Translations under genes and position numbers: made by a program
Source: Dehalococcoidales bacterium
GTDB lineage: Bacteria; Chloroflexota; Dehalococcoidia; Dehalococcoidales; GCA-2688105
Direction of reading: 5' to 3'
Assembly: GCA_030640255.1 (NCBI GenBank)
Contig: DAOWJS010000028.1
Location: 1-34,430, forward strand
DNA length: 34,430 bases
Shown: positions 3,401 to 34,390 of the stretch, piece by piece
Layout of the letters: every line of letters starts with the position of its first letter
Numbering within the stretch: the stretch's first letter is position 1
Notes under the pieces: generated by a model
Told to the model about the DNA's origin: nothing
Database searches by the model: none
The model's input: only the letters and a program-made list of their open reading frames with translations

Positions 3401-3750
3401 GGTGTTCCCAGGCTTTTCATATTATATTTGTCTAAAACGCCGGCATCGGCTAAGTCCACCGCTAGATTAAGCCCGGTCTGACCACCGAGGGTGGGCAGTA
3501 GCCCATCGGGACGCTCCCGCTCAATAATGCGGGCGACCATTTCCACGGTGAGCGGCTCAATATAGATAATGTCGGCGATACCCTCATCGGTCATAATGGT
3601 TGCCGGGTTGGAGTTGACCAGCACCGAGGTTACCCCCTCCTCCCGCATCGCCTTGCACGCCTGGGTGCCGGCGTAGTCAAACTCCGCCGCCTGCCCGATA
3701 ACAATCGGCCCCGACCCAATAATTAATACTTTAGATGGTTTCTTGGTCAA
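496..3750 (-). CDS. carB: carbamoyl-phosphate synthase large subunit
   Basis: 1084-aa ORF with duplicated ATP-grasp halves ([21 protein letters not shown] and [19 protein letters not shown]) and an MGS-like C-terminal domain. TTG start at 3750 is preceded by AAGGAG 8 nt upstream. Lies downstream of carA. Confidence 0.97.
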
Positions 3751-4400
3751 GATGTGTGCTCCTTATAAAAGAAATGCGACCAGATGAGAATATCTAATAA
3801 GCGAAGAAGGGAAACGTCATACATATATTCATATTTAGTTGAAATAATCTGCTGTATCTTAGTTAATTCATCTTTGTTTGCATCTATATCTTTTTTTAGT
3901 TCGGAAATACACTTGATAGCCCAATCAGACTCGCTAGTCCATTTCTGGTCTATTATGATGGCTTTGCAGTAATCTATTTCCAATATACTATCAAGAATTG
4001 GTATTACATTTGGTAATTTCTTGTGCAGTATTTTTGTCTTTCTAGCAAGACTCAAATATTTTGTGTCGAATGCTTGTATTAATTCACCAATTTTACCCCA
4101 CGGTATCTTTTCAAAATCGTCAGAGATTTTTGTGTTGTAAGGAATTTTAGAGAGACAGGAGTTTATCTTATTTATTTTTTCAAGGAGCGGTTTAATTACA
4201 AGTGATTCATCATAATAAGGAATTCTAGCACCAAGACTATTACTGGCATCTATAGCCATAAGTATTTGTGCCTTGTTTAAGAAGCTGTTTGTAGGTAGTC
4301 TCATACTGTCATAATATCGGGCTCCGCTTTCCCTGTTCCAGTAATATTCAATTTTCTCAATAGGATTTGAAATCTGGATGTTATTTCTTAGTTTAATCAT
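3747..4400 (-). CDS. hypothetical protein, AT-rich orphan gene (possibly DUF6308-like)
   Basis: 217-aa ORF with a strong SD (AAGGAGGTGA) 5 nt upstream of ATG 4400. Its stop overlaps the carB TTG start (TTGA). By eye it is about one-third G+C, against about half in the flanks. The motifs [17 protein letters not shown] and [11 protein letters not shown] recall my memory of the DUF6308 family; this is not verified. Confidence 0.7.
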
Positions 4401-4420
4401 TACTTCACCTCCTTACCTTC

Positions 4421-4900
4421 ATCTTGTTCTACCTCACCCCCTTTGTCCCCCTCTCCTTCAAAGGAGAGGGGGAGGTTGGGTGTGGAGAGGGGCTTCGCCC
4501 CTCTCAGACTCCCCGTATTAAGTTCTGCCTCACTCGGACTCCCCTTAATCATATCTAGATGTTTCGTCCCTCTCAGGCTCTCCCCACATTCAAGCTTGGG
4601 AGGATTATCCTCTCGGACTCCCCGTATTTTGTTCCGTACCTTTAGGTTCTCCTAAATACTAAGGGTTCAACCCTCTCGGACTCCCCTTATTCAATTTTGT
4701 CTATCTCCCTCCACTCAGGTGGGTTATAGAGAGGTTCAACCTCCCTTTTTAACCATCTCCTTACCCATCAGGAGAGTTTTAGAGAGGCGAAGCCTCTCTT
4801 TTTACATCTTCCCCTTCCCCTTACCCAATCCCCAAGGGGAAGGGGATAAAGGGGATGGGGTTACCACTAAACAGGGGCGAAGCCCCCTAAAACTCCCTGT
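4421..4900. repeat. intergenic hairpin-repeat cluster A (cap, P1, P2, five CTCGGACTCCCC-tailed units, P3 and GGGGATGGGGTTACC)
   Basis: Cap (reverse complement) 4427-4443. P1 palindrome 4447-4472 (CCCCCTCTCCTT..AAGGAGAGGGGG). P2 4485-4505 (GAGAGGGGC-TTC-GCCCCTCTC). Tails end at 4514, 4544, 4585, 4623 and 4686. Hairpins at 4600-4612, 4662-4674, 4731-4743, 4781-4799 and 4874-4886. P3 arms at 4811-4822 and 4834-4845. Track ORFs in this stretch are low-complexity artefacts. Confidence 0.85.
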
Positions 4901-4902
4901 AT

Positions 4903-6000
4903 TCATTTCCCTCCCCTCACCATCTCCAGAAACTTTTCAAAGAGGTAGGTATTGTCCAGGGGGCCGGGGGAGGCTTCGGAGTGGTACTGGATGGAGAAGA
5001 TGGGTAGCTCCTTGTGACGCAAGCCTTCCACCGTACCGTCATTCAGGTTGATATGGCTTACCTCTAGACCATCTTTCAAGGTATCGGGGTCAACGGCGTA
5101 GCCGTGGTTCTGAGCGGTGATATGGATTCGCCCATCACTCAGGTCGCGGACGGGGTGGTTACCGCCGCGATGACCAAACTTCAGCTTGAAGGTCTTGGCA
5201 CCGAATACCCTGCCCAGAATAAGGTGTCCCATACAGATGCCCATTATTGGCTTTTTACCGACAAGTTTCTTAATCGTATCTACTATGTAATCCAGCACTT
5301 CGGGGTTACCCGGACCCGGGGAGAGGAGAATACCGTCGGGCTTCAGGTTCAAGATTTCATCGGCAGTCATGGTGCAGGGCACCGCAGTTACCCGGCAGCC
5401 GTGACCACACATCATGCGCAGTATGCTGTATTTCAAGCCGCAGTCCAGGACGACTATTTTACATGGCGGTGAGGCTGCCTGGCCCGGTTCTGGTTCCCAT
5501 TGATAGGGGGCGTTGGTGGTAACCTGCTTGACGAAATCGGTGGAGCCATAGCCGGGTACTTTCAGCAGTTGCTCCATAGCCTGCTGGGGAGTTTTATCGC
5601 TGGTAATAATGCCCATCATTACCCCGGCCGAGCGGAGTTTGCGGGTGATAGCCCGGGTATCCACGCCACTTATTCCCGGTATGCCATTTTCGACTAGGTA
5701 TTCATGGAGGGTGCCGGTGCTCAGGTAGTGGTTGGGTTGGTAGCACTCCTCCCTGACCACAAAGCCTCTAACCTGGACTTTGTCCGACTCAAAATCCTGC
5801 TCATTTATGCCGTAATTGCCGATAAGGGGGTAGGTGGGAACCACAATCTGTCCGGCGTAGGAGGGGTCGGTTAGCGTTTCCTGATACCCGAACATACTGG
5901 TGTTGAAAACCACCTCACCACAGGCATCAGCCTCAGTCCCAAAGGCATAACCTTCATAAACTGAGCCATCGGCTAAGACTAGTATTGCTTTTTTAGTCAT
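4903..6000 (-). CDS. carA: carbamoyl-phosphate synthase small (glutamine amidotransferase) subunit
   Basis: 365-aa ORF. The N-terminal CPSase small-chain domain begins AILVLADGSVYEGYAFG. Class I GATase motifs are present (PIMGICMGHLIL, then HRGGNHPV and NHGYAV). Confidence 0.97.
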   Translation of the reverse strand: MTKKAILVLADGSVYEGYAFGTEADACGEVVFNTSMFGYQETLTDPSYAGQIVVPTYPLIGNYGINEQDFESDKVQVRGFVVREECYQPNHYLSTGTLHEYLVENGIPGISGVDTRAITRKLRSAGVMMGIITSDKTPQQAMEQLLKVPGYGSTDFVKQVTTNAPYQWEPEPGQAASPPCKIVVLDCGLKYSILRMMCGHGCRVTAVPCTMTADEILNLKPDGILLSPGPGNPEVLDYIVDTIKKLVGKKPIMGICMGHLILGRVFGAKTFKLKFGHRGGNHPVRDLSDGRIHITAQNHGYAVDPDTLKDGLEVSHINLNDGTVEGLRHKELPIFSIQYHSEASPGPLDNTYLFEKFLEMVRGGK

Positions 6001-6007
6001 ATTAGGC

Positions 6008-6333
6008 TTTATCTACCTCACCCCCTTAGGTTTTTATTAGGTAACCCTATCCCCTTTAGTCACTTGATTTGGTGACCCTCCCCCTTTTGTCCCCCTCCCT
6101 TGTTAAGGGAGGGGGAAATTGGTTGTGTGAGAGGGGCGGTGCCCCTCTCTGACTCCCCTTCGAGCTTCCCCGTTAACGGGGGAAGATTTTCTCTGAAGAG
6201 GGGCTTTGCCCCTCTTAAACCCCCCTTCACTATTTTCTTCTTCAAAGGAGAGGGGAGGTATGGGTTTCGGGGGAGCTTCGCCCCTCCAAGCTTCCCCTCA
6301 GAAAATAAATTCCTTATAGAGGCTTTGCCTCTC
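6008..6333. repeat. intergenic hairpin-repeat cluster B (same family and same order as cluster A)
   Basis: Cap (rc) 6008-6028. GGTAACCCTATCCCCTTTAG 6040-6059. P1 6091-6115. P2 6129-6149 with tail TGACTCCCC 6150-6158. Further GC hairpins at 6165-6185, 6196-6216, 6269-6287 (degenerate) and 6318-6332. The stretch 6091-6158 aligns almost base for base with 4447-4514. Confidence 0.85.
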
Positions 6334-6335
6334 CT

Positions 6336-7669
6336 TTAATATTTCCCCTTCGCCTCAACTTTAATTGAGTCATCCTTATAAACTAGCTTTCCCCGGGCTA
6401 TGGTTGCCATTACCATCCCTTTAAGCACTGAGCCAGCCCAAGGGGTATTCTTGCCCTTTGAGGCAAAGGTCTTGGTATCTACCACCCATTCCCTCCCAGG
6501 GTCAAAGATGGTAATATCGGCTGAAGCACCAATAGCTAGTGTGCCCAGTTTTTCATATTTATCACCAATAATCTTTGATGGTTCATAAGTGAGCTTGGCG
6601 ATGAGGGTAGTCAGAGTTAGCTGTCCATCGTGCACTAAACTCATCAGGCTGCCCAAGGCGGTCTCAAATCCACTGATGCCAAAGGGGGCCAGGGCAAACT
6701 CACACCGTTTATCGGCCTCAGTGTGAGGGGCGTGGTCGGTAGCAATAATGTCAATTACATTCTCTTTGAGCCCTTGAATTAATGCTTGGACGTCTCTTCC
6801 GGTTCTTAGCGGTGGATTTACCTTAGCGTTGGTATCATAGCCTATTACCCTATCCTCGGTGAGGGTCAGGTGGTGTGGGGTGACCTCGGCAGTAACCCGG
6901 ATGCCTTTTTCTTTGGCACGACGAATAAGCTCAACCGAGCCTTCAGTGGTAACATGGGCAATGTGTAGCCGACCTCCGGTGAGTTGAGCCAGAGCCAGGT
7001 CACGGGCAACTATAATATCTTCAGCGGCATTAGGTATGCCACGAAGCCCTAATCTGGCTGAGGTTACGCCCTCATTCATCACTCCGCCCTCGGTGAGGGC
7101 AGTATCCTCACAGTGGTCAGTAATCGGCAGGTCCAGGTCGCGGCTACAGTCCAGTGCCTGGCGCATAAGGCGTGAATTCAGAGCTGGTTCACCATCATCA
7201 CTAAAGGCAATCACCCCGGCTGAAGCCAGTTCGTCTAGTTCAGCTAGCTCCGCTCCCTTTCTTTCTTTAGAAATACAGCCTATAGGCAGAACGCGAACCA
7301 CGCCTTCGGTGGCTGCCGTTGATTTGACATAATTTATGGCAGCTTGATTGTCCAGGGGTGGGTTGGTATTAGCCATACAGCAGATAGTGGTAAAGCCGCC
7401 TCTGGCTGCGGCTTGAGTGCCGGTGGCAATGGTTTCCTTCTCTTCAAACCCCGGCTGCCTCAGGTGACAGTGAAGGTCAACAAACCCGGGGCAGACTATC
7501 AGTCCCTGGGCATTAAGGACTTCATACTCGGGGTGGGGTGGGGTTATTTCCCCTCTGCCCAGCCATGAGATTTTGCCGTTGCTGATGAGCAAACTACCGA
7601 TTTCATCGAGCCCCTGGCTGGGGTCGATTATGCGACCGCCATGGATAAGCAAGGAAACTGCTTTGATAT

Positions 7670-12352: not shown

Positions 12353-14527
12353 ATGGATATTCTGGCTGAGCTTAATCCGGCGCAGAGGGAAGCCGTAGAG
12401 GCAATCGGTGGTCCGGTGCTAATTCTAGCCGGCCCGGGCAGTGGTAAAACCAGGGTTATTGCCCATCGGGTGGCTTACCTGGTCAAGGTTTGCCGGGTTA
12501 GCCCTCGCCGAATTATGGCGGTTACCTTCACCAATAAAGCCGCCCGGGAAATGGAGACAAGGCTTCACCGGCTGGTCAGCGGCTCGGTAAGAGATTTAAC
12601 CCTGGGCACCTTTCACGCCATTTGCGCCCGTATCCTGCGCCGGGAGGGCAAGGCGATAGGTATTGACCCCCGGTTTGTCATCTATGACGAAGAGGACCAG
12701 CTCAGCCTGCTCAAGCGCAGTATTCAGGAAGCAGGGCTTGACCCCAAGCAGTATGCCCCTCGGGCGATACGGTCAGCTATTACCTCAGCTAAGAGTCGCT
12801 TGTTAACCCCTCAAGACTATCTTGAGAGTAGCCGTAGCTATTTTGAGGAGGTAGCGGGGAGGGTCTATGAACGCTACCAGCAGCTGCTAACGGCAAGCAG
12901 TGCCCTTGATTTTGACGACCTGTTAATGAAAGCGGTGCAGCTATTTAAGCAAAGCCCCGAGATTTTGTCTCGGTATCAAGAAAGATACCTCCATCTCCTG
13001 GTAGACGAGTTTCAGGACACCAACCTGACCCAATATGAGCTAGTAAAGCAACTGGCGGGCAAGTATCGCAATATCTGTGTGGTTGGCGACCCCGACCAGT
13101 CAATCTACTCGTGGCGGTTTGCCGATTTGCGTAATATCCTTAACTTTGAGAAGGATTACCCTGAGGCTAAATTGGTGTTGCTGGAGCAGAACTATCGCTC
13201 GACCAAGCTGATTCTGGAAACGGCATCCTACATCATCTCCGCCAATCAGCAGCGCAAACCCAAGGAACTGTGGACAGATAATGAGCCGGGTGAGCTAACT
13301 ACGGTGGTGGAGACCTATACCGAGCAGGAAGAAGCCCAGTTTGTGGTTAGTGAGGTAGAGCGCCTGGTAGGTCGGGGGGAGGTTAATCGTGGCGACTGTG
13401 CGGTAATGTATCGCACCAATGCCCAGTCCCGAGCTCTGGAGGAGGCTTTTGTTCGCTATGGGGTGCCCTATAAGCTGGTGGCGGGCACCCGCTTCTATGA
13501 GAGGCGAGAGATTAAGGATATTATTGCCTATCTCCGGCTTATCCAGAACTCTTATGATTCGGTTAGCCTGCTGAGGATAATCAATGTCCCCCAGCGTGGC
13601 ATCGGGCAGCGTAGTCTGAGCCAGCTATCTAACCGGGCAAGGTCGGCGGGTGTCCCCGAGTATAGGGCGTTACAGCTTATCGCTGAGCCAACCGATAAAC
13701 CGTCGCCTCCCTTTAGCTCTCGTATCAGTCGGGCAATGGCTGGCTTTGTAAACTTGATGGAGGGGCTTATTGCCCGCAGTCGGGAGCTAAACCTGGTTGA
13801 TTTACTGGACTTGGTTATTGAAAGCTCTGGCTATAAGGAATATATACTGGGTGGACTGGATGGAGAGGAGCGCTGGGAGAATATCCTTGAGCTGCGCACT
13901 GTAGCCGGGCAGTATCGTGATTTGACGCCGCGGGATGGTTTAGCCGCCTTTCTGGAAGGGGTAACCCTGGTATCCGATGTTGATGGGCTTGATGAAAGTG
14001 TGGATGCGGTAACCCTGATTACCCTGCATCAGGCTAAGGGTCTGGAGTTCCCGGTAGTGTTCATTGTTGGTATGGAAGACGGTATCCTGCCCCATTTTAA
14101 GTCGTTTGACGACCCAGGGCAGATGGAGGAGGAGCGGCGGTTGTGCTATGTCGGGGTAACCCGAGCCAAGCAGAGGGTGTATCTAATCCGTGCCTTCCGC
14201 CGCAGCCTGATGGGAAGCAGCACCGTAAATAGACCCTCCCGCTTCTTAAGCGATATTCCGTCGCATTTGATAACCGGGGGTGCTTTGTGGGAGGGGGAAG
14301 ATAGCCTGGCGGCTACGGCGATGTACTCCTGGAATAGGGCTTCTGCCCCCAGCTTGGCAGTTACGGAGTTAAAGGCGGGCGACCACATCCGCCATGCTGA
14401 GTTCGGCGACGGGGTGGTGGTGAGCTGCCAGCCGGTAAAGGATGATGAGGAGGTAGTGATTGCTTTCGCCGGCGTCGGAGTAAAAAGGCTCCTTCTCAGC
14501 TATGCCAATCTGGAGAAGGTGGAGTAA
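12353..14527 (+). CDS. pcrA: ATP-dependent DNA helicase PcrA/UvrD
   Basis: 724-aa ORF with SF1 helicase motifs: AGPGSGKT, TFTNKAAREM, LLVDEFQDTN, VGDPDQSIYSWR, YRS, TLHQAKGLEF and YVGVTRA. Confidence 0.95.
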   Translation: MDILAELNPAQREAVEAIGGPVLILAGPGSGKTRVIAHRVAYLVKVCRVSPRRIMAVTFTNKAAREMETRLHRLVSGSVRDLTLGTFHAICARILRREGKAIGIDPRFVIYDEEDQLSLLKRSIQEAGLDPKQYAPRAIRSAITSAKSRLLTPQDYLESSRSYFEEVAGRVYERYQQLLTASSALDFDDLLMKAVQLFKQSPEILSRYQERYLHLLVDEFQDTNLTQYELVKQLAGKYRNICVVGDPDQSIYSWRFADLRNILNFEKDYPEAKLVLLEQNYRSTKLILETASYIISANQQRKPKELWTDNEPGELTTVVETYTEQEEAQFVVSEVERLVGRGEVNRGDCAVMYRTNAQSRALEEAFVRYGVPYKLVAGTRFYERREIKDIIAYLRLIQNSYDSVSLLRIINVPQRGIGQRSLSQLSNRARSAGVPEYRALQLIAEPTDKPSPPFSSRISRAMAGFVNLMEGLIARSRELNLVDLLDLVIESSGYKEYILGGLDGEERWENILELRTVAGQYRDLTPRDGLAAFLEGVTLVSDVDGLDESVDAVTLITLHQAKGLEFPVVFIVGMEDGILPHFKSFDDPGQMEEERRLCYVGVTRAKQRVYLIRAFRRSLMGSSTVNRPSRFLSDIPSHLITGGALWEGEDSLAATAMYSWNRASAPSLAVTELKAGDHIRHAEFGDGVVVSCQPVKDDEEVVIAFAGVGVKRLLLSYANLEKVE

Positions 14528-14538
14528 TCAAGGGTAGA

Positions 14539-14623
14539 TTGAAGGGGCGAAGCCCCTTCAAAACCCATCCTTCCCCCTCTCCTTTGAAGGAGAGGGGGAT
14601 AAAGGGGGTGAGGTAGATAAAAC
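14539..14623 (+). repeat. hairpin-repeat unit C (P2 - P1 - cap)
   Basis: TTGAAGGGGC-GAA-GCCCCTTCAA at 14539-14561. CCCCCTCTCCTT-TG-AAGGAGAGGGGG at 14573-14598. ATAAAGGGGGTGAGGTAGATAAAAC at 14599-14623. It is collinear with 19641-19727 and with the reverse complement of 4427-4514. Confidence 0.85.
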
Positions 14624-14638
14624 ATTCCTCAATAACTA

Positions 14639-14667
14639 TTGACATTTTACACGGAAGCGTGTATAAT
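14639..14667 (+). promoter_or_regulatory. consensus sigma70-type promoter of mutL (near-leaderless)
   Basis: Perfect TTGACA (14639-14644), a 17-nt spacer, then TATAAT (14662-14667). ATG 14676 follows after 8 nt with no SD. Confidence 0.65.
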
Positions 14668-14675
14668 TAACTATT

Positions 14676-16388
14676 ATGCCTATCAGAGTTTTAGACCCCA
14701 AGGTAGTATCCCGGATTGCCGCCGGGGAGGTGGTGGAGCGGCCGGCCTCGGTGGTGAAGGAGCTGGTGGAGAACTCGCTGGATGCCGGCTCATCCCAGAT
14801 TTCCATTGAGGTCAGGGGTGGTGGGGTAAGCTTAATTAGGGTGATGGATAACGGGGTGGGCATTCCCCCGGGGGAGGTAGAGCTTGCCTTTGCCCGTTAT
14901 GCTACCAGCAAGGTAGGCAGCTTAGAGGATTTGGAGTCTATTTCCAGCCTCGGCTTTCGGGGGGAGGCGTTACCCAGTATCGCCACCGTGGCTGAGGTAG
15001 ACATGGTTACCTGTGCTGCCGGCGAGACGGCAGGCACTTACCTTAGCCTTAAGGACGGCGTTGCCGTTGGTCGGGGAAGCCGGGGACGCTCCCCGGGGAC
15101 GACGATTACGGTGCGGGGTCTATTCCGCAAGCTGCCGGCAAGGTTAAAGTTCCTTAAGTCGCCAGCTACGGAAAATAGCCATATTGCCCAGGTGATAAGT
15201 CAGTATGCCCTTGCCTTCCCCGAGGTCAAATTTACCTTGTTTATTGAGGGCAGGATGGCGCTAACCACGGCAGGTAGTGGTCGGCTAATAGATAGTGTGA
15301 CTCAAGTTCATGGCTTAGAGGTAGCCCAGAATATGCTGGAGATTAAGAATAGGGGGTGGCAGGGCGGGGCAGCAATGGCATCACCCCTGGTAACCGGTAT
15401 GGTAGGCTCGCCGGCAATAAGCCGTTCCCATCGGGGTTACCTCAGCCTCTTTGTCAATCGCCGCTGGATAAACAGCCGACTGGTGGCTCGGGCAGTGGAG
15501 GAGGCTTATCACGGGCTTTTGATGCTGGGGAAACATCCGGTGGCTATCATCAATATTTCACTACCTCCTGAGGAGGTGGATATTAATATTCACCCCACCA
15601 AAATAGAGGTGAAGTTCAGTAACGAGCACATAGTTTTTACCGCTGTCCAGAGGGCAGTCCGACAGGTTTTAATTGAACTGGTGCCGGTGCCTAAGATTGA
15701 GGAGGTAGCTACCACCTATACCTCACCATCACCGCCACGACAAGTATCGTGGCTCTCAGCCGTAGGTGGTGATAGCCTTACTGGTGCGGCGCCGGTAGCT
15801 TCTCAGACACCTACCGTTTCACTGCCGGCACTACGAATACTGGGTCAGCTCTTGAGTAGCTATATTATAGCCGAGGGTCCCGATGGGTTGTATCTTATCG
15901 ACCAGCATGCCGCCCATGAGCGCGTCCTTTTTGAAAAGATAAAATTGCAGCGGTCACGGCAAGAGGTAGAAGTTCAAGGGCTACTTGAACCGGTAACCTT
16001 TGAGGTTAATCCCCAGCAGGAGGAAGTTCTAAAATCACACTATGAAAATCTAGCCGAATTCGGTTTCACCATTGAGCCTTTTGGTGATAGAACCTATCTC
16101 GTCAGGGCGGTGCCAGTTCTGCTTTATGACCAAGATTGGGTGGGAATGCTGAGGGAGTTACTGGATTCCTTATCTGGGGAGGATAAGGATGACTGGGGGG
16201 AAAAGGTAGCTATCTCCATCGCCTGCCACAGTGCGGTAAGGGCTGGGCAGACATTAACTAATGACGAAATGCGCCAACTTATACGGCAACTGGAGCAGGT
16301 AGCCCTTCCCCATACCTGTCCCCATGGCCGACCAACCATGGTTCGTCTCAGCTCGGGACAGCTGAAAAAGGAGTTTGGTAGAAGCTAA
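14676..16388 (+). CDS. mutL: DNA mismatch repair protein MutL
   Basis: 570-aa ORF. The GHKL ATPase N-terminus reads IAAGEVVERPASVVKELVENSLDAG and DNGVGI. The C-terminal dimerisation/endonuclease region includes DQHAAHERVLFE. Confidence 0.95.
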   Translation: MPIRVLDPKVVSRIAAGEVVERPASVVKELVENSLDAGSSQISIEVRGGGVSLIRVMDNGVGIPPGEVELAFARYATSKVGSLEDLESISSLGFRGEALPSIATVAEVDMVTCAAGETAGTYLSLKDGVAVGRGSRGRSPGTTITVRGLFRKLPARLKFLKSPATENSHIAQVISQYALAFPEVKFTLFIEGRMALTTAGSGRLIDSVTQVHGLEVAQNMLEIKNRGWQGGAAMASPLVTGMVGSPAISRSHRGYLSLFVNRRWINSRLVARAVEEAYHGLLMLGKHPVAIINISLPPEEVDINIHPTKIEVKFSNEHIVFTAVQRAVRQVLIELVPVPKIEEVATTYTSPSPPRQVSWLSAVGGDSLTGAAPVASQTPTVSLPALRILGQLLSSYIIAEGPDGLYLIDQHAAHERVLFEKIKLQRSRQEVEVQGLLEPVTFEVNPQQEEVLKSHYENLAEFGFTIEPFGDRTYLVRAVPVLLYDQDWVGMLRELLDSLSGEDKDDWGEKVAISIACHSAVRAGQTLTNDEMRQLIRQLEQVALPHTCPHGRPTMVRLSSGQLKKEFGRS

Positions 16389-16932: not shown

Positions 16933-17355
16933 TTATCAAAGCTACTTTCTTTCTAGGCTTGGCATCAAATTATAACCTATCTGGCTCTATTCTTCCAGTT
17001 TGGCTTTCTGATTGGCGTAAGCATTTTATATAGAAGATTTGCAGGATTAAATGTAGTAATATGTATGTGCTAACTGAAGCGTCGTTTTTCCGTTATAATA
17101 GTAGAGTGTACTGGAGGCTTTACCTTTTCGGAAAGTTCAAAGGGGTATCCGAGGATTGATTAATGTGTTGTTTTGTGTTAAAATTATTCCCAATTTTGTT
17201 ATCGTGTTAGAAGAAGGCAAGCTTAGAAAGAGAACCAGGAAGGTAAAGTGAGACAGATGCTCTTTGTATTATTTAGAAAGGCAGGTGATGTGATGGAGTA
17301 GGTAGTTAGGCATAGGACTGATGGGAGATACTCGTAAAAAAGGCAGGAGGTAACT

Positions 17356-17697
17356 ATGCGCAGGATATTTAAGGTATTAGGAGTGATGGCTATTATTCCT
17401 TTATTATGCGTGGCAATAGTAGCCTGTGTCCCTACTATCCCTCTAACTCTGGAGGTAACTTCACCCACTGAGGGAGCAGAGCTTACCGTGACTCCGGTAA
17501 CGGTAGGGGGTAGTGTGTCTGATGTTGAGGCCGAGGTGACAATCAATGAGGTGGCAGTAACTGTGGCTGAGGATGGTATATTCTCTGGCGAGGTTGAGCT
17601 TACTGAAGGCGAAAACACTATTACAGTTGTCGCCACACTGGGTGAGGAAATAGTAACCCAGACAGTAACTGTTACCTATGCCCTGCCGGCTGAATAG
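17356..17697 (+). CDS. small lipoprotein with a bacterial Ig-like fold
   Basis: 113-aa ORF. The RBS GGAGGT lies 5 nt upstream. The signal peptide has the lipobox IVAC. The rest is a Thr/Val/Glu-rich beta-strand pattern. A strong terminator follows the gene. Confidence 0.7.
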   Translation: MRRIFKVLGVMAIIPLLCVAIVACVPTIPLTLEVTSPTEGAELTVTPVTVGGSVSDVEAEVTINEVAVTVAEDGIFSGEVELTEGENTITVVATLGEEIVTQTVTVTYALPAE

Positions 17698-19615: not shown

Positions 19616-19640
19616 TTAGTGAGGTCATTTATCAGGGAAG

Positions 19641-19727
19641 TTTGAAGGGGTGAAACCCCTTCAAAACCTATACGTCCCTTCTCCCTTGAAGAAGAGGGGA
19701 AGTAAGGAGGTGAGGTTGATAAATAAA
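19641..19727 (+). repeat. hairpin-repeat unit D (P2 - degenerate P1 - cap)
   Basis: TTTGAAGGGGT-GAA-ACCCCTTCAAA at 19641-19665. A degenerate P1 at 19676-19702. TAAGGAGGTGAGGTTGATAAATAAA at 19703-19727. The architecture matches unit C. Confidence 0.8.
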
Positions 19728-19743
19728 CCCTTAATTTATAGAA

Positions 19744-20244
19744 ATGTGCGAAACTAACATCGAACTATTTAAGGAGGTTCTAGTGAAGAGAACTTTTTTG
19801 ATAGGTATGGTATTAATTCTGATGCTCTTCCTGTTGCCTTCCTGCGCTGCTGGAGTATCTCAGGAAGAGTATGACAGGGTAACTAGCGACCTTGCTGTAG
19901 CTCAGACCCAAATTCAATCATTGGAAGGTGATTTGACCGAAGCAGAAGCACAAATTCAGTCCTTACAGACCGACAAAGAGGTCTCAGAGGAAAAGCGTGC
20001 GGAAGCATTGGCTTATGCCGAGTTCGTCGATGTGCTTCTGTGGCCAGCTTGGAAGAAAGCTGGGATTACTCCCCGCTTCGCATTTGAAGATGAGGTTGAC
20101 TGGCTGGTAGAGCTAAAGAACAGAGCCAGTGACCTAGGAGATACAAAATTAAGTAACTATATTAAGGGATTGGATGAAGCCGCCACATTAGTTGCTCTAT
20201 ATGATTATTGCCTTGGAAGGATAGTAGAGAAAACCCTAAAGTGA
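19744..20244 (+). CDS. hypothetical coiled-coil lipoprotein or secreted protein
   Basis: The likely true start is GTG 19783, which has AAGGAGG 6 nt upstream. The signal peptide ends LLPSC. There is a short coiled-coil repeat (AQTQIQSLEGDL / AEAQIQSLQTD). The gene is inserted between ribE and ribBA. Confidence 0.65.
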   Translation: MCETNIELFKEVLVKRTFLIGMVLILMLFLLPSCAAGVSQEEYDRVTSDLAVAQTQIQSLEGDLTEAEAQIQSLQTDKEVSEEKRAEALAYAEFVDVLLWPAWKKAGITPRFAFEDEVDWLVELKNRASDLGDTKLSNYIKGLDEAATLVALYDYCLGRIVEKTLK

Positions 20245-20293
20245 ACGGATTATCAATTGGGTTTCGCCCATCCCTAAATTCATTCTGTTTTCC

Positions 20294-21526
20294 ATGGAGG
20301 GAGGAATAAGCATGGGGCTGTCAACCATTCCTGAGGCTATTGAGGACTTAAAGGCAGGCAAGTTTGTTATTATAGTTGATGATGAGGATAGAGAGAACGA
20401 AGGTGACTTGGCACTAGCTGCCGAGAAGGTTACCCCTGAGGCTATTAACTTCATGACACTGAAGGCCAGGGGACTAGTGTGCTTGCCTATAATCGGCAAG
20501 CGATTAGACGAACTGGTGATTCCTTTAATGGTGCCGGATAATTCCACCAAGTTTTGCACCGCCTTTACCGTCTCTGTTGAAGCTAAACACGGGGTAAGCA
20601 CCGGTATTTCGGCAGCGGATAGAGCCCACACCATAAAAACGGTAATTGACCCGGCTACTAGAGCCGAGGATTTAGTTCGACCCGGGCATGTGTTTCCGCT
20701 ACGAGCCAGGGAGGGTGGTGTCTTGGTGCGGGCGGGACATACCGAGGCGGTAGTTGATTTAGCCAAGCTGGCTGGTCTCTATCCTGCCGGCGTTATCTGT
20801 GAGGTTATGAATGAGGATGGCTCTATGGCACGGCTACCTCAGCTTGGAGTAATGGCCGAGAAGTATGGGATTAAGATTATAAGTGTGACCGACCTCATTG
20901 CTTATCGCTGCCGCCATGAGAAGCTGGTGCACCAGGTGGCTAAGGCTAAGTTACCAACCAAATACGGTCGGTTTACGGCTCTTGCCTATAAAAGTGATAT
21001 AGACCCTGATGAACAATTAGCCTTAGTAATGGGTGATGTATCCGCTGAGGAGCCGGTGTTAGTCCGAGTCCACAGTGAATGTGTTACCGGTGATGTATTT
21101 GGTAGCCTTCGCTGTGATTGTGGTGAGCAGATTGCTCTAGCCATGCAAGCCATTGCTGATGAAGGGCGAGGTGTTTTCCTGTATATGAGACAGGAGGGAC
21201 GAGGTATTGGTTTTCATAATAAGATTCGTGCCTATGCTCTTCAAGACCAGGGATTGGACACCGTGGAGGCTAATCTGCGCTTAGGATTTGCTCCTGACCT
21301 GCGGGATTATGGTATAGGTGCTCAAATCCTGGCTGATCTGGGTTTACACGAGATTCGATTGCTCACCAACAATCCGAAAAAGGTGATAGGTTTGGAAGGT
21401 TACGGGCTGAAGGTGGTGGAGACGATACCCATAATCACCACTCCTACCCCGTATAACCGTGACTACTTGGAGGCAAAACAAGAAAAATTAGGTCATCTTT
21501 TAGAAATAAAAAAGGTTACTGAATAG
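20294..21526 (+). CDS. ribBA: bifunctional 3,4-dihydroxy-2-butanone-4-phosphate synthase / GTP cyclohydrolase II
   Basis: The DHBP synthase motif is VDDEDRENEGDL. The GCH-II motif is HSECVTGDVFGSLRCDCG. The likely true start is ATG 20312 (MGLSTIPEAI), downstream of GGAGGGAGG. Confidence 0.95.
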   Translation: MEGGISMGLSTIPEAIEDLKAGKFVIIVDDEDRENEGDLALAAEKVTPEAINFMTLKARGLVCLPIIGKRLDELVIPLMVPDNSTKFCTAFTVSVEAKHGVSTGISAADRAHTIKTVIDPATRAEDLVRPGHVFPLRAREGGVLVRAGHTEAVVDLAKLAGLYPAGVICEVMNEDGSMARLPQLGVMAEKYGIKIISVTDLIAYRCRHEKLVHQVAKAKLPTKYGRFTALAYKSDIDPDEQLALVMGDVSAEEPVLVRVHSECVTGDVFGSLRCDCGEQIALAMQAIADEGRGVFLYMRQEGRGIGFHNKIRAYALQDQGLDTVEANLRLGFAPDLRDYGIGAQILADLGLHEIRLLTNNPKKVIGLEGYGLKVVETIPIITTPTPYNRDYLEAKQEKLGHLLEIKKVTE

Positions 21527-22112: not shown

Positions 22113-22367
22113 TCAGTCAATAACCTTATAGACGGTATCTCCTCTTCTTACCCGGTCGCTGACTTTGATACCAACATTATCCCCGGTTTTAGCCTCTTTA
22201 ACGTCTACATTATTAATCTGCATTGAGTCAACAGTGAGTTCCATATCGGTGGTGTGACCTTTAATATGGATTTTATCCCCCAGTTTTATCGTCCCTGTTA
22301 GCTCAATACCGGCTACCACCGGTCGGGCAAAGAAGTCGTTGACCTTTCCGATTACCTCCTCAGGCAT
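22113..22367 (-). CDS. stand-alone EF-Tu domain-2-like beta-barrel protein (translation elongation factor-like protein)
   Basis: 84-aa ORF with the RBS AAAGGAGG. The pattern GDKIHIKGHTTDMELTVDSMQINNVDVKEAKTGDNVGIKV...GDTVY resembles domain 2 of translational GTPases. Confidence 0.7.
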   Translation of the reverse strand: MPEEVIGKVNDFFARPVVAGIELTGTIKLGDKIHIKGHTTDMELTVDSMQINNVDVKEAKTGDNVGIKVSDRVRRGDTVYKVID

Positions 22368-22466
22368 TTGGGTACCTCCTTTACCTTTAATTGGGGTAAG
22401 GTTTTTCGGTTGTCCTTACGTTAGTATACGTCAACTAGTCTAAGTAAATCAATATTTAGAGGTCGT

Positions 22467-22894
22467 TTAGCAACCTATCCCCCTGACCCCCTTCCCTTAA
22501 TAAAAGATTGTTAAACAACCCCTCACCCTTTATCCCTCTCCCCTTATGAAGGGGAGAGGGAAGAGAAATTCTCAAAGGGGCTTCGCCCCTTTTAATCCCC
22601 TTTGCTAAAAACTCTTAATAAGAGGGGGAGTGTAGGTAAGAGAGGGGCTTCGCCCCTCTCTAAAATCTCTTCTTTGAAATATATAGGAAGTCTAAGCGGG
22701 GCTAACGCCCCTCTGTTTTACTCCTTCCCCCTCTCCTTTAAAGGAGGGTCAAAGGGAGGCGAAGCCTCCCTTATATAAGCTCCCCTTCCCCTTATCAAGG
22801 GGAAGGGGATAAAGTCCTTGCCTGCTTTGGCAAGGATAAAGGGGATAGGGTTACCTAATAGAAATCTAAGGGGGTGAGGTTAATAAACAATCTC
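22467..22894. repeat. intergenic hairpin-repeat cluster E (mosaic of all module types, with cap-like modules facing outward at both ends)
   Basis: Left end: rc-type modules at 22467-22491 and 22505-22535. P3 at 22534-22560. P2 copies at 22574-22592, 22639-22661, 22698-22711 and 22752-22772. Degenerate P1 at 22727-22748. P3 at 22782-22808. Inserted hairpin at 22815-22836. GATAAAGGGGATAGGGTTACC at 22835-22855. Cap at 22866-22894. Confidence 0.85.
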
Positions 22895-22906
22895 AATATT
22901 TGACCT

Positions 22907-22935
22907 TTGACATACCATTACCTGTCACCTATAAT
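22907..22935 (+). promoter_or_regulatory. consensus sigma70-type promoter abutting the cluster E cap
   Basis: Perfect TTGACA (22907-22912), a 17-nt spacer, then TATAAT (22930-22935). A second TATAAT lies at 22945-22950. The RBS GGAGGGTGA lies at 22957-22965, before TTG 22969. Confidence 0.6.
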
Positions 22936-22968: not shown

Positions 22969-23199
22969 TTGGCTCAGGAAAACGAACCTAATGTGGTCGG
23001 TCAGGAACCAACGCTGGATATTGAACAGATTAAAAGGCATTTGGACATGTTAGACCAGCGTTTAGATAACATCGACTCGGTGGTTACCGCTGTTGTTGAA
23101 CGAGTAATGAAACAACCTATTGCTCTTAATGTAACCTGTCCCTACTGTGGTAAGAACATAGAGATTGCTATTATAGGTAGTCATAAGCCAACAAGATAG
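22969..23199 (+). CDS. small hypothetical protein with a C-terminal CxxC
   Basis: 76-aa ORF with a TTG start, a good RBS and a promoter upstream. It has a helical N-terminal part and the motif CPYCGKNIEI near the C-terminus. I recognise no family. Confidence 0.5.
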   Translation: MAQENEPNVVGQEPTLDIEQIKRHLDMLDQRLDNIDSVVTAVVERVMKQPIALNVTCPYCGKNIEIAIIGSHKPTR

Positions 23200-24152: not shown

Positions 24153-24229
24153 GGGCGGTTAGCTCAGTTGGTTAGAGCGCTGCGTTGACATCGCAGAGGT
24201 CACTGGTTCAAATCCAGTATCGCCCACCA
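24153..24229 (+). tRNA. tRNA-Val(GAC): tRNA-Val (anticodon GAC), CCA encoded
   Basis: Cloverleaf read by eye. The acceptor stem is GGGCGGT/ATCGCCC. The D-arm is AGCTCAGTTGGTTAGAGC. The anticodon stem CTGCG/CGCAG encloses the loop TTGACAT. The T-arm is GGTTCAAATCC. The discriminator is A and CCA follows. Confidence 0.95.
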
Positions 24230-34176: not shown

Positions 34177-34390
34177 GAGATTGTTTAACCCTATCCCCTG
34201 TATCCCCTTCCCCTTATCAAGGGGAAGGGGAGATAATTTCTTTAGAGGGGCTACGCCCCTCTAAAACTCTCCCATTATTGCTCCAGAGTAAGGAGAGTTA
34301 AAGAGAGGCTTCGCCTCTCTTATATAACTAATTCCCCTTCCCCTTATCAAGGGGGAAGGGGATAAAGGGGATGGGGTTACCAAATAAAAA
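34177..34390. repeat. intergenic hairpin-repeat cluster F (two P3-bearing units with imperfect inverted ends)
   Basis: Left end GAGATTGTTTAACCCTATCCCCTGTAT at 34177-34203. P3 at 34204-34230. P2 at 34242-34264. AGAGAGGC-TTC-GCCTCTCT at 34302-34320. P3 at 34334-34361. ATAAAGGGGATGGGGTTACC at 34362-34381. Confidence 0.85.

What the first reader, a model, noticed from the sequence alone, without database searches (positions are those of the whole stretch)
22862..22935. The cap end of every repeat cluster faces a gene start, often directly abutting a consensus promoter
Cluster E: cap 22866-22894, then TTGACC(22900)/TTGACA(22907)-17-TATAAT(22930), then ORF 22969. Cluster C: cap 14599-14623, then TTGACA(14639)-17-TATAAT, then mutL. 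Cluster F, minus strand: GGGTTAAACAATCTC, 5 nt, TTGCCA-18-TATAAT, then the MFS gene. Cluster A: rc cap 4427-4443, AAGGAGG, ATG 4400. Cluster B: rc cap 6008-6028, then the carA ATG 8 nt later. Cluster D: cap 19703-19727 (which itself contains TTGATA), then the lipoprotein gene. The left end of E (rc of 22505-22535) faces the divergent gene at 22367. The tail AACAATCTC is shared by the E and F ends and sits 5 nt from a -35-like hexamer in both. A consistent outward orientation across seven ends is unlikely to be chance. It suggests either that the elements carry or create outward promoters (a portable hairpin-plus-promoter insulator cassette), or that they target promoter-proximal DNA.
Basis: partly seen in the sequence, partly recalled or inferred. 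Interest (0 to 1): 0.7.

Follow-up and report, generated by a model that had tools for sequence, protein, structure and literature searches.

The report
Mobile hairpin repeats beside native promoters
The "caps" are the inverted-repeat ends of small mobile hairpin repeats that fill the DNA between genes in Dehalococcoidales bacteria, and in the two cases tested the strong promoters next to them belong to the host genes, so the pattern is mostly ordinary.

Summary
The motifs and coordinates are real. There are five exact caps (0.07 expected by chance), and the window's only two perfect sigma-70 matches lie just downstream of caps. The interpretation mostly fails.

- **What the cap is.** It is the 27-28 nt terminal inverted repeat of a MITE/REPIN-like repeat family (hairpin 1, hairpin 2, cap). 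The family is found in dozens of Dehalococcoidales MAGs. Where two or more units share a spacer, caps point outward in 20 of 23 spacers.
- **Promoters are native.** Relatives with 89-94% identical proteins have empty sites at clusters C and E, with the same promoters intact. The mutL promoter is conserved in most of the 45 relatives examined, whatever lies upstream. The distance from cap to -35 varies. Twenty-five of 68 caps sit less than 35 nt from an ORF start.
- **Orientation bias is modest.** About 60-78% of caps face a start in tandem contexts, depending on how copies are defined. Caps also abut the stop codons of bona fide genes. One such case lies in the window itself: unit 4770-4862 faces the carA stop.
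- **Why promoters are nearby.** Flanks are A/T-rich, so insertion probably favours short A/T-rich sites near stop codons and upstream of -35 boxes.

One unexplained extra: the cap G-tract mirrors the purine arm of hairpin 2.

The parts
22458..22486 (-). Outer left terminal inverted repeat of cluster E (type iii cap, reverse-complemented): AGAGGTCGTTTAGCAACCTATCCCCCTGA
   Evidence: One search gives the sequence. One search shows that native DNA shared with relatives L170-L173 ends at AATATTT (22451-22457). The same left-end sequence occurs in L084 and L168.
22487..22503 (+). Left arm (CCCCCTTCCC) and loop (TTAATAA, 22497-22503) of the outer element's hairpin 2. The loop is the first copy of the duplicated target.
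   Evidence: The matching right arm GAGGGGG follows at 22622-22628, after the nested insert.
22504..22614 (-). Nested element inserted into the hairpin loop.
   Evidence: nhmmer unit hit 22600-22505(-), E = 4e-15. It is flanked by TTAATAA at 22497-22503 and 22615-22621. The same nested insert is present in L168, a relative whose 76-aa protein is 95% identical.
22615..22865 (+). Second TTAATAA copy, followed by an internal mosaic of partial units. This includes a small hairpin insert (22815-22841) in the ATAAAG linker.
   Evidence: Partial unit hits at 22684-22756(+) and 22746-22814(+). Sequence. The closer relative L168 has about 250 nt less here.
22866..22894 (+). Right terminal inverted repeat of cluster E: type (i) cap plus tail, CTAAGGGGGTGAGGTTAATAAACAATCTC
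   Evidence: Exact cap match. Solo-cap profile hit at 22866-22894. It is 92% complementary to 6008-6058 (I2).
22895..22935 (+). Native host DNA: AATATTTGACC, then the promoter TTGACA (22907-22912), 17 nt, TATAAT (22930-22935), serving the 76-aa gene (TTG start at 22969).
   Evidence: 12/12 promoter match. The same sequence is conserved in relatives that lack the cluster (L170-L173) and in L174.
14528..14630 (+). Cluster C: one 103-nt unit (hairpin 1, hairpin 2, cap 14602-14621) flanked by AGTAA (14523-14527, which includes the pcrA/uvrD stop codon) and AATAA (14631-14635).
   Evidence: nhmmer E = 6e-26. RNA fold -55.3 kcal/mol, z = -5.0, giving two hairpins. The unit is absent from L116-L119, which read GGTGGAATAA-CTA/CCC-TTGACA.
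14639..14667 (+). Native mutL promoter TTGACAttttACACGgaagCGTGTATAAT. The ATG at 14676 lies 8 nt after the -10 box.
   Evidence: 12/12 match. It is conserved in most of the 45 relatives examined, with or without repeats and with different upstream genes.
19635..19729 (+). Cluster D: one unit (cap 19704-19723) upstream of a 166-aa lipoprotein-like ORF (19744-20244).
   Evidence: nhmmer E = 4e-17. The ORF contains LLPSC after a hydrophobic stretch. Both the unit and the ORF are absent between ribE and ribBA in L170 and L172.
4423..4515 (-). Cluster A, left unit. The cap at 4424-4443 faces the start of the DUF6308 gene (ATG at 4400).
   Evidence: nhmmer E = 5e-23. Pfam assignment. Sequence.
4770..4862 (+). 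Cluster A, right unit. Its type (ii) cap (GGGGATGGGGTTACC) faces the STOP codon of carA (4903). This is the exception inside the window.
   Evidence: nhmmer E = 7.6e-15. Sequence.
6005..6159 (-). Cluster B, proximal part: a unit (6159-6078) followed by a type (ii) cap and a type (i) cap (6008-6027). The carA ATG at 6000 lies 7 nt beyond.
   Evidence: The architecture is conserved in L104. Different modules occupy the same spacer in L068 and L080.
34177..34273 (-). Cluster F, left unit. Its cap and tail (rc GGGGATAGGGTTAAACAATCTC) end 5 nt from the TTGCCA of the MFS gene promoter (34171-34142).
   Evidence: nhmmer E = 3e-15. 11/12 promoter match. MFS_1 assignment.
34291..34387 (+). Cluster F, right unit, forming an inverted pair with the left unit. 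The cap points right, towards an ATG at 34390 that runs off the window end.
   Evidence: nhmmer E = 5e-16. Inverted repeat I3. Sequence.

Best explanation
The repeat clusters are copies of a non-autonomous, hairpin-rich interspersed repeat family specific to Dehalococcoidales. It resembles a MITE or a REPIN/BIME.

**Anatomy.** The basic unit is about 100 nt: hairpin 1 (GAGAGGGGCGAAGCCCCTCTC-type), hairpin 2 (CCCCCTCTCC / GGAGAGGGGG-type), a short linker, and the G-rich cap plus tail. Complete elements carry a cap at both ends in inverted orientation. The cap is therefore the terminal inverted repeat.

**How clusters form.** New copies insert into the loops and linkers of resident copies. Clusters grow from the inside, and the caps stay at the outside, pointing outward.

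**Where they insert (inferred).** Insertion favours short A/T-rich sites. In these roughly 50% GC genomes such sites are concentrated at TAA stop codons and just upstream of -35 boxes. Only insertions that spare the promoter survive. Element ends therefore abut native promoters and start codons.

**The promoters** next to clusters C and E are the host genes' own and pre-date the insertions. F was not tested.

**Residual orientation bias (inferred).** About 2:1 of type (i) caps lie on the sense strand, facing the downstream gene. This is most likely selection on read-through RNA. The sense orientation exposes a Shine-Dalgarno-like AAGGGGGUGA. The antisense orientation would expose an anti-SD-like C-rich strand that could sequester real ribosome-binding sites.

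**Shown:** anatomy, mobility, native promoters at C and E, size of the bias. **Inferred:** target preference, cause of the bias, identity of the mobilising enzyme.
For: **Family and anatomy**
They are overwhelmingly Dehalococcoidales/Dehalococcoidia MAGs from many assemblies.
- The contexts share hairpin 2, the cap and the CAATCTC tail. The consensus unit comes from 45 copies.
- The unit folds into two strong hairpins.

**Cap is a terminal inverted repeat**
- Left ends GAGATTGTTTAGCAACCTATCCCCCTGA match the reverse complement of right ends GAGATTGTTTATTAACCTCACCCCCTTA.
- Complete 153-172 nt elements occur in L027, L052, L054, L097 and L112.
- Where two or more units share a spacer, the arrangement is caps-outward in 20 of 23 spacers and never caps-inward (P = 7e-10 against 0.25).

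**Mobility**
- The cluster C site is filled in the window but empty in four relatives with 89-94% identical MutL. ARTAA/TAA is duplicated at the junction.
- Cluster E is absent from L170-L173 (76-aa protein 92-93% identical) and simpler in L168 (95%). A nested insert is flanked by TTAATAA.
- Cluster D plus its ORF is absent from L170 and L172.
- The pyrC-carA spacer holds different module sets in four species.

**Native promoters:**

**No promoter in the element:**

**A/T-rich flanks:**

**Orientation, tandem contexts (faces start : faces stop)**
- Exact caps, first ORF-based count: 31:9.
- Type (i) caps outside the window: 28:9.
- Profile-defined units with an exact cap: 24:12.
- Profile-defined units without an exact cap, which were not used to select the loci: 28:19.
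- Profile-defined units in all contexts: 99/147 face a start, against about 0.56 expected (P = 0.006).

**Caps abut stop codons of real genes:** M16 peptidase, a LysA-like decarboxylase, ValRS, EamA, DUF350 and TyrRS.
Against: - No transposase or RAYT gene was found, so the mobilising enzyme is unknown. Only two ORFs lying between inverted caps were tested, and both are ordinary genes.
- Target-site duplication shows at only two informative junctions. A bulk test on 56 single units was not significant (19 against 16.4 +/- 3.2). A DDE-type mechanism is therefore not established.
- Gene calls in the loci are crude: the longest non-overlapping ORFs of at least 100 aa.
- The loci were selected by exact type (i) caps. 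The least biased subsample (28:19) is not significant on its own.
- The F promoter was not compared with relatives.
- The proposed cause of the orientation bias is untested.
Confidence: 0.75

Rival explanations
1. Portable promoter or insulator cassette. The element carries or completes an outward-firing sigma-70 promoter, as Correia elements do in Neisseria, and this drives the downstream gene.
For: - The cap contains TTGATA/TAGATA, a 4-5/6 match to the -35 consensus.
- In L038, L088 and L096 a TATACT -10 lies exactly 17 nt after TAGATA, and in two of them an ATG follows 6 nt later.
- Both 12/12 promoters in the window lie within 20 nt of a cap.
- Correia and several other MITEs do carry promoters (PMC10969869).
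Against: - The promoters of mutL and of the 76-aa gene are conserved at empty sites and behind unrelated upstream DNA.
- The -35 lies at variable distance (8-45 nt) in non-homologous sequence.
- 25 of 68 caps have no room for a promoter.
- Promoter frequency is 30% against 22% in controls (P = 0.30).
- Only 5 of 95 caps have a -10 at 16-18 nt from the cap hexamer, no more than at other spacings.
Confidence: 0.05
2. The cap is an exapted RNA signal: a Shine-Dalgarno mimic. It would act as a ribosome standby or initiation site for a closely following gene, or as a 30S-binding mRNA stabiliser like the STAB-SD of Bacillus cry genes (the STAB-SD comparison is from my own knowledge). That function would maintain the sense orientation.
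For: - AAGGGGGTGA pairs with the conserved 16S 3' end ...UCACCUCCUU, using one G-U pair (established knowledge of the anti-SD sequence).
- In four species the carA ATG lies 0-10 nt after a cap, and no other SD is visible, even though the internal modules differ.
- Several ORFs start 0-5 nt after the cap: L019, L068, L012 and L030.
- purD in L074 and L076 appears to begin inside the cap.
- Type (i) caps, the most SD-like, show the bias. Types ii and iii do not.
Against: - Most caps lie more than 20 nt from the start, or are separated from it by a promoter.
- Many downstream genes have their own SD, for example the ATG at 4400.
- In the profile-based count about a third of cap ends face stop codons (49 of 147); in the exact-cap count it is about a quarter (19 of 78). 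Pfam confirms the genes involved in several cases.
- Spacing at carA in three species is 15-18 nt from the GGTGA core, which is long for an SD.
Confidence: 0.2
3. Single-strand (HUH/Y1) transposition, as in IS200/IS605 derivatives or REP/RAYT. Subterminal hairpins would be recognised on one DNA strand during replication. The orientation bias would then follow from the bias of genes towards the leading strand.
For: - The elements are dominated by subterminal hairpins.
- New copies land in hairpin loops and linkers.
- Inverted pairs resemble REPINs.
- The bulk test for target-site duplication was negative.
Against: - The ends are clear 27-28 nt inverted repeats.
- Sequence is duplicated at both informative junctions: 7/7 TTAATAA, and ARTAA.
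- Within the window the caps flip strand together with local gene blocks (A and B minus; C and D plus). GC skew follows gene strand rather than showing a single replication switch.
- No Y1 gene was seen, but hardly any was looked for.
Confidence: 0.15

Closest known systems
Bacterial MITEs (non-autonomous derivatives of insertion sequences), e.g. those reviewed in PMC10969869
   Same: - Size of 75-170 nt with no coding capacity.
- 27-28 nt terminal inverted repeats.
- Many copies, located between genes.
- Presence/absence differences between close relatives.
- Nested insertions, with duplicated flanking sequence at two junctions.
   Different: - No parent insertion sequence or transposase has been identified.
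- Target-site duplication is not demonstrable in bulk.
- Many copies are single-ended units carrying one cap.
- The interior is unusually rich in short G/C hairpins, and the cap mirrors a hairpin arm.
REP / BIME / REPIN elements of Proteobacteria (mobilised by RAYT Y1 transposases)
   Same: - Short GC-rich palindromic units.
- Strictly extragenic.
- Combined into mosaic clusters.
- Frequent inverted pairs.
- Sit between co-transcribed genes and directly after stop codons.
   Different: - Different sequence and a different phylum.
- Extended non-palindromic terminal repeats (the caps).
- Duplicated flanks at informative junctions.
- No RAYT association has been shown.
Correia repeat-enclosed elements (CREE) of Neisseria
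   Same: - Size of 100-150 nt with 26-nt-class inverted repeats.
- Located just upstream of genes.
   Different: - Here the promoters are native and the element supplies none.
- Flanks are A/T-rich 5-7-mers rather than a strict TA.
- No sequence relationship.
ERIC/IRU elements of enterobacteria
   Same: Transcribed intergenic repeats for which orientation relative to the mRNA matters. Insertion at the 3' end of Yersinia genes affects transcript levels through an RNase E site in the terminal repeat (PMC10969869).
   Different: No RNA-level effect has been measured here. The sequences are unrelated.

Membership tests
MITE | Terminal inverted repeats | tested here: met
   Left ends match the reverse complement of right ends at about 22/28 positions. 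Complete 153-172 nt elements occur in five loci. Caps point outward in 20 of 23 multi-unit spacers.
MITE | Target-site duplication | tested here: inconclusive
   ARTAA/TAA flanks cluster C when compared with the empty site. TTAATAA flanks the nested insert in E. The bulk 5-mer test on 56 units gave 19 against 16.4 +/- 3.2 in controls.
MITE | Small, non-coding, multi-copy, and polymorphic between relatives | tested here: met
Empty and filled sites are seen at C, D and E.
MITE | A cognate autonomous insertion sequence or transposase with the same ends | not testable with these tools
The two ORFs between inverted caps are a transglutaminase-like protein and a PAS protein.
REP/BIME/REPIN | Short imperfect palindromes, extragenic, forming mosaic clusters and inverted pairs | tested here: met
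   Only 4 of 139 oriented units fall inside ORFs.
REP/BIME/REPIN | Association with a RAYT (Y1 transposase) gene flanked by the repeats | not testable with these tools
   No whole genome was available, and none was seen in the fetched loci that were examined.
Correia-type promoter-bearing MITE | -35 and/or -10 elements inside the repeat that fire outward | tested here: not met
   Promoters are conserved at empty sites. Spacing is variable and there is no enrichment.
Intrinsic terminator | GC-rich hairpin directly followed by a U-tract | tested here: not met
   Units C and D have CAAAACC after hairpin 1 and a G-rich cap after hairpin 2. The terminator scan flags only some cluster hairpins: 4781-4799, 6090-6116, 22698-22711 and 34203-34231. 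The family consensus has only TTTT followed by AAAA.
Known RNA families (Rfam 15) | Match at or above the gathering score | tested here: not met
   The only hit in the window is a tRNA at 24153-24226.

The most novel reading that the evidence does not exclude
The cap may not be an arbitrary transposon end.

- In every subfamily its G-tract is the mirror image of the purine arm of hairpin 2. The pairs are GGAGAGGGGG/GGGGGTGAGG, GGGGAGAGGG/GGGTGAGGGG, GGGAGGGGG/GGGGGAGGG and GGGAAGGGGG/GGGGGATAGG.
- The order pyrimidine arm, purine arm, G/T/A third strand is what an intramolecular purine-motif (R*R-Y) triple helix or H-DNA would need.
- If that fold forms on single-stranded DNA or under supercoiling, these elements would be mobile triplex-forming modules placed next to promoters and start codons.
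- The sense-strand bias, together with the SD-like sequence, could then reflect a real effect on transcription or translation.
Probability: 0.15. Interest if true: 0.6.

Novelty: new member of a known kind. Interest (0 to 1): 0.3.

Why it matters
- **Genome biology.** The result documents an apparently undescribed, widespread repeat family in Dehalococcoidales. Two literature searches and Rfam gave nothing. The family is active enough to differ between relatives whose proteins are about 90-95% identical. It sits inside core operons (pyr, rib) and next to DNA-repair gene promoters.
- **Annotation.** Cap-proximal GTG codons and SD-like sequences can mislead start-codon calling, and the hairpins can be mistaken for terminators.
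- **The original claim.** Its value is mainly negative. A striking local pattern of perfect promoters beside repeat ends is explained by native promoters plus transposon architecture, not by a new regulatory cassette.

Tried and rejected
- **L001 as a relative.** It came from the MutL look-up and is essentially the same strain (99.8% identical). It has a run of Ns where cluster D lies, so it gave no information on polymorphism.
- **Promoter inside the element.** Rejected.
- **Cap hexamer as a general -35.** Rejected. Only uvrB-type loci fit.
- **Bulk search for target-site duplication.** Not significant.
- **Regex pairing of ends to read duplications off flanks.** Inconsistent apart from L054 and L114.
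- **Autonomous element between inverted caps.** Only ordinary genes were found.
- **Hairpin 1 as a general intrinsic terminator.** Not supported by the window copies.
- **Other mutL loci as empty/filled pairs (L164/L126, L147/L138, L153/L159).** Only the promoter aligns, so the junctions cannot be defined.
- **Literature searches for Dehalococcoidia repeats.** Nothing relevant.
- **The F (MFS) promoter.** Not compared with relatives, to spare a large database search.
Full report
**1. Is the observation there?**

Yes, as far as the listed motifs go.
- The 20-nt cap AAGGRGGTGAGGTWRAWMAA has five exact copies: 4424-4443(-), 6008-6027(-), 14602-14621(+), 19704-19723(+) and 22868-22887(+). Shuffles give 0.07 expected.
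- The only two 12/12 sigma-70 matches in the 34-kb window are TTGACA-17-TATAAT at 14639-14667 and at 22907-22935. Each lies within about 20 nt of a cap.
- TTGCCA-18-TATAAT at 34171-34142(-) scores 11/12 and lies 5 nt from the cluster F tail.
  - Cluster B lies between the pyrC-like gene and carA.
  - Cluster A lies between carA and a DUF6308 gene that overlaps the carB start.
  - Cluster C lies between pcrA/uvrD and mutL.
  - Cluster D lies between ribE and a 166-aa lipoprotein-like ORF.
  - Cluster E lies between a divergent 84-aa gene and a 76-aa gene followed by BioY.
  - Cluster F lies upstream of an MFS gene.

**2.

- A profile built from 45 copies found elsewhere detects eight near-full units in the window.
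- One of them, 4770-4862(+), carries a variant cap (GGGGATGGGGTTACC). That cap points at the stop codon of carA at 4903.
- Clusters E and F are inverted pairs with caps at both ends.
- The window therefore has nine outward cap ends.
  - Four lie in divergent spacers, where facing a start is automatic. This counts F right, which depends on the unverifiable short ORF at 34390.
  - Five lie between co-directional genes, and four of those face a start (one-sided P = 0.19).
- The window alone proves nothing about orientation.

**3. What the thing is**

Almost all are from Dehalococcoidales/Dehalococcoidia MAGs of many assemblies.
- The contexts show a conserved unit:
  - hairpin 1, (A)AGAGGGGCGAAGCCCCTCT(T);
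  - a spacer;
  - hairpin 2, TCCCCCTCTCC-loop-GGAGAGGGGGA;
  - a linker (ATAAA or TCA);
  - the cap, plus a frequent CAATCTC tail.
- Three subfamilies differ in hairpin 2 and cap:
  - (i) GGGGGTGAGGTWRATAAACAATCTC;
  - (ii) GGGGATAGGGTTACC;
  - (iii) GGGGGATAGGTTGCTAAACAATCTC.
- As RNA, unit C folds into two strong hairpins (-55.3 kcal/mol, z = -5.0).
- Complete 153-172 nt elements have a type (iii) cap reverse-complemented at the left and a type (i) cap at the right. The two ends match as inverted repeats at about 22/28 positions.
- In spacers with two or more units the arrangement is caps-outward in 20 of 23 and never caps-inward (P = 7e-10).
- The cap is therefore the terminal inverted repeat of a MITE/REPIN-like element.
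- Rfam has no matching family. Two literature searches found no description.

**4. Mobility**

*Cluster C*
- Four metagenomic relatives have MutL 89-94% identical to the window's (L116-L119).
- They read ...GGTGGAATAA-CTA/CCC-TTGACA.
- The window reads ...GGTGGAGTAA[103-nt unit]AATAA-CTA-TTGACA. This is a clean insertion with ARTAA (or TAA) duplicated.

*Cluster E*
- Relatives L170-L173 have a 76-aa protein 92-93% identical to the window's. Their spacer is 172 nt, against 601 nt in the window, and they have no cluster.
- L168 (95% identical) has only the outer minimal element plus one nested insert.
- The window has that nested insert (22504-22614, flanked by TTAATAA on both sides) plus about 250 nt of further insertions.
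- Clusters therefore grow by nested insertion, which keeps the original caps at the outside.

*Other clusters*
- Cluster D and its ORF are absent from the rib operon of L170 and L172.
- The pyrC-carA spacer holds repeats in four species, but with different modules.

*Flanks*
- Flanks just outside the tail are 69-77% A+T at positions +1 to +5 and decay to about 50% by +10. This suggests an A/T-rich target of about 5-7 bp.
- A bulk test for duplicated 5-mers was not significant. The transposition chemistry stays open.

**5. Are the promoters part of the element?**

No.
- The mutL promoter TTGACAttttACACGaaaCCGTGTATAAT is conserved in most of the 45 relatives examined. This holds whether or not a repeat is present, and whatever gene lies upstream.
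- The promoter of the 76-aa gene (CTTTGACATAC...CCTGTC.CCTATAATTA) is intact in the cluster-free relatives and in L174.
- Across the family, 25 of 68 start-facing caps are less than 35 nt from the ORF start.
- Of 37 caps with room for a promoter, 11 have a >=10/12 match, against 45/205 repeat-free upstream spacers (odds ratio 1.5, P = 0.30). The -35 starts 8-45 nt from the end of the 20-nt cap.
- The cap's own TTGATA/TAGATA has a suitably spaced -10 in only 5 of 95 copies.

**6. Is there an orientation bias?**

Yes, but it is modest, and it is not a rule.

| Set of copies, tandem contexts | Faces start : faces stop | P |
|---|---|---|
| Exact caps with a hairpin upstream | 31:9 | 0.0007 |
| Type (i) caps outside the window | 28:9 | 0.003 |
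| Type (ii) caps | 4:8 | n.s. |
| Type (iii) caps | 4:8 | n.s. |
| Profile-defined units with an exact cap | 24:12 | 0.065 |
| Profile-defined units without an exact cap (not used to select loci) | 28:19 | 0.24 |

- Over all contexts, 99 of 147 profile-defined cap ends face a start. About 56% is expected from spacer lengths (P = 0.006).
- Caps also sit 5-11 nt from the stop codons of genes that Pfam confirms: M16 peptidase, a LysA-like decarboxylase, ValRS, EamA, DUF350 and TyrRS.
- Independent elements upstream of the mutL promoter in L147, L153 and L164 all point at it, as the window's does. This fits the bias, but the sample is small.

**7. Mechanism**

*Shown*
- These are mobile, non-coding repeats with inverted-repeat ends.
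- They nest inside one another.
- The adjacent promoters at C and E are native.

*Inferred*
- Insertion prefers short A/T-rich sites. These are concentrated at TAA stop codons and in the A/T-rich stretch upstream of -35 boxes. Selection removes copies that break promoters. Ends therefore abut promoters and start codons.
- The sense-strand excess of type (i) caps is best explained by selection on co-transcribed RNA. The sense orientation exposes AAGGGGGUGA, a near-perfect Shine-Dalgarno sequence. The antisense orientation exposes its C-rich complement.
- In a minority of sites the cap may have been co-opted as a ribosome-binding region. carA is the example: its ATG lies 0-10 nt after a cap in four species.

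*Rivals.* A replication-strand (HUH-type) mechanism and a promoter cassette are both less well supported. See the rival explanations.

**8. Comparison with known systems**

- In behaviour the elements are closest to bacterial MITEs, and to REP/BIME/REPIN clusters. They are not related in sequence to any named family.
Its defining feature, promoters inside the repeat, was tested here and not met.

**9. Verdict**

- The family is a new member of a known kind. Interest is low to moderate.
- The one odd feature is the mirror symmetry between the cap and the purine arm of hairpin 2. It holds in 101 of 124 asymmetric copies and in all four or five distinct classes. It would fit an intramolecular purine-motif triplex, but this is untested.

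Noticed in passing
window 14576-14611; also 22533-22559 with 22517-22530, and 6090-6116 with 6065-6080; loci L002-L115: The cap G-tract is a mirror repeat (not a direct or inverted repeat) of the purine arm of hairpin 2, and the two co-vary between subfamilies. The pairs are GGAGAGGGGG/GGGGGTGAGG, GGGGAGAGGG/GGGTGAGGGG, GGGAGGGGG/GGGGGAGGG and GGGAAGGGGG/GGGGGATAGG. The mirror alignment beats the direct alignment in 101 of 124 asymmetric copies. This arrangement could form a Y-R-R intramolecular triplex. Type (ii) also has four G-runs, enough for a G-quadruplex.
   Followed up: partly
window 14639-14678; L116-L166: The mutL promoter carries a palindrome, TACACG-N4-CGTGTA, between the -35 and -10 boxes. 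The ATG lies only about 8 nt after the -10, so the mRNA looks leaderless. The whole arrangement is conserved in most of the 45 relatives examined, with MutL mostly 64-94% identical. It is probably an operator for an unidentified repressor.
   Followed up: no
window 19616-20300: Cluster D and the 166-aa lipoprotein-like ORF (LLPSC lipobox) together form an insertion of about 650 nt between ribE and ribBA. Relatives L170 and L172 have only 31-45 nt there. The repeat and the gene may have arrived together.
   Followed up: partly
window 3747-4902; L068 5047-5450: A DUF6308 gene sits between carA and carB behind the 500-nt cluster A, and its stop overlaps the carB start. In L068 the ORF that follows carA and its repeats begins MDKNKAIELL, unlike the window's [10 protein letters not shown], so it may be a different gene. 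The carA-carB spacer may be a hot spot for gene insertion.
   Followed up: no
window 6336-6345; L104, L068, L080: In all four species the stop codon of the pyrC-like gene is the TAA inside the left end (GAGAGTTAAAGAGRGGC) of a hairpin-1 module. The repeat therefore supplies or overlaps the end of the coding sequence.
   Followed up: partly
L074 2889-2925; L076 4600-4640: purD appears to begin (I/M)KILVVGGGGREH at an ATA codon inside the cap (GGTAG-ATA-AAA), and no ATG/GTG/TTG is in frame. In L074 the cap stands alone without any hairpin.
   Followed up: no
L038 (rc 5829), L088 (rc 7363), L096 1798: The cap hexamer TAGATA lies exactly 17 nt from a TATACT -10 box. In L038 and L088 the uvrB-like ATG follows 6 nt later. 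This may be a genuine case of a cap recruited as a -35 box, echoing the Correia-uvrB promoter of Neisseria.
   Followed up: partly
L176, L177, L179, L181, L182, L183 (IMG/VR contigs): Six of the eight viral-contig matches to the cap pattern are full units with hairpins. The family therefore also occurs on predicted Dehalococcoidia phage or prophage contigs.
   Followed up: partly
window 22969-23199: The 76-aa ORF downstream of cluster E is a real, highly conserved small protein with a CPYC motif. It has 1593 homologues at E <= 1e-5 and no Pfam family. In relatives it is followed by an SSF transporter gene rather than BioY.
   Followed up: no
window 22451-22457 and 22895-22901; L170 and L172 about 2400-2440: The 'empty' cluster E sites in relatives have two AATATTT copies separated by 9 nt (TCTGTGAGG or TCTAGAGAG). 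In the window, single AATATTT copies flank the whole cluster. This could be an excision footprint or the relic of an older element.
   Followed up: no
window 22809-22841: A 21-nt hairpin (TCCTTGCCTGCTTTGGCAAGG) sits in the hairpin 2-cap linker, with ATAAAG repeated on both sides. In other loci a different hairpin (CGGGTTCCCAGGAAAATC..GATTTTTCTGGGTGCTT) occupies the same linker position. The linker seems to be a preferred insertion point.
   Followed up: no
window 17319-17679 versus L001 12699-13166: A near-identical strain (99.8% identical) differs by about 411 nt of tandem repeat inside a Glucodextran_B/cadherin-like gene.
   Followed up: no
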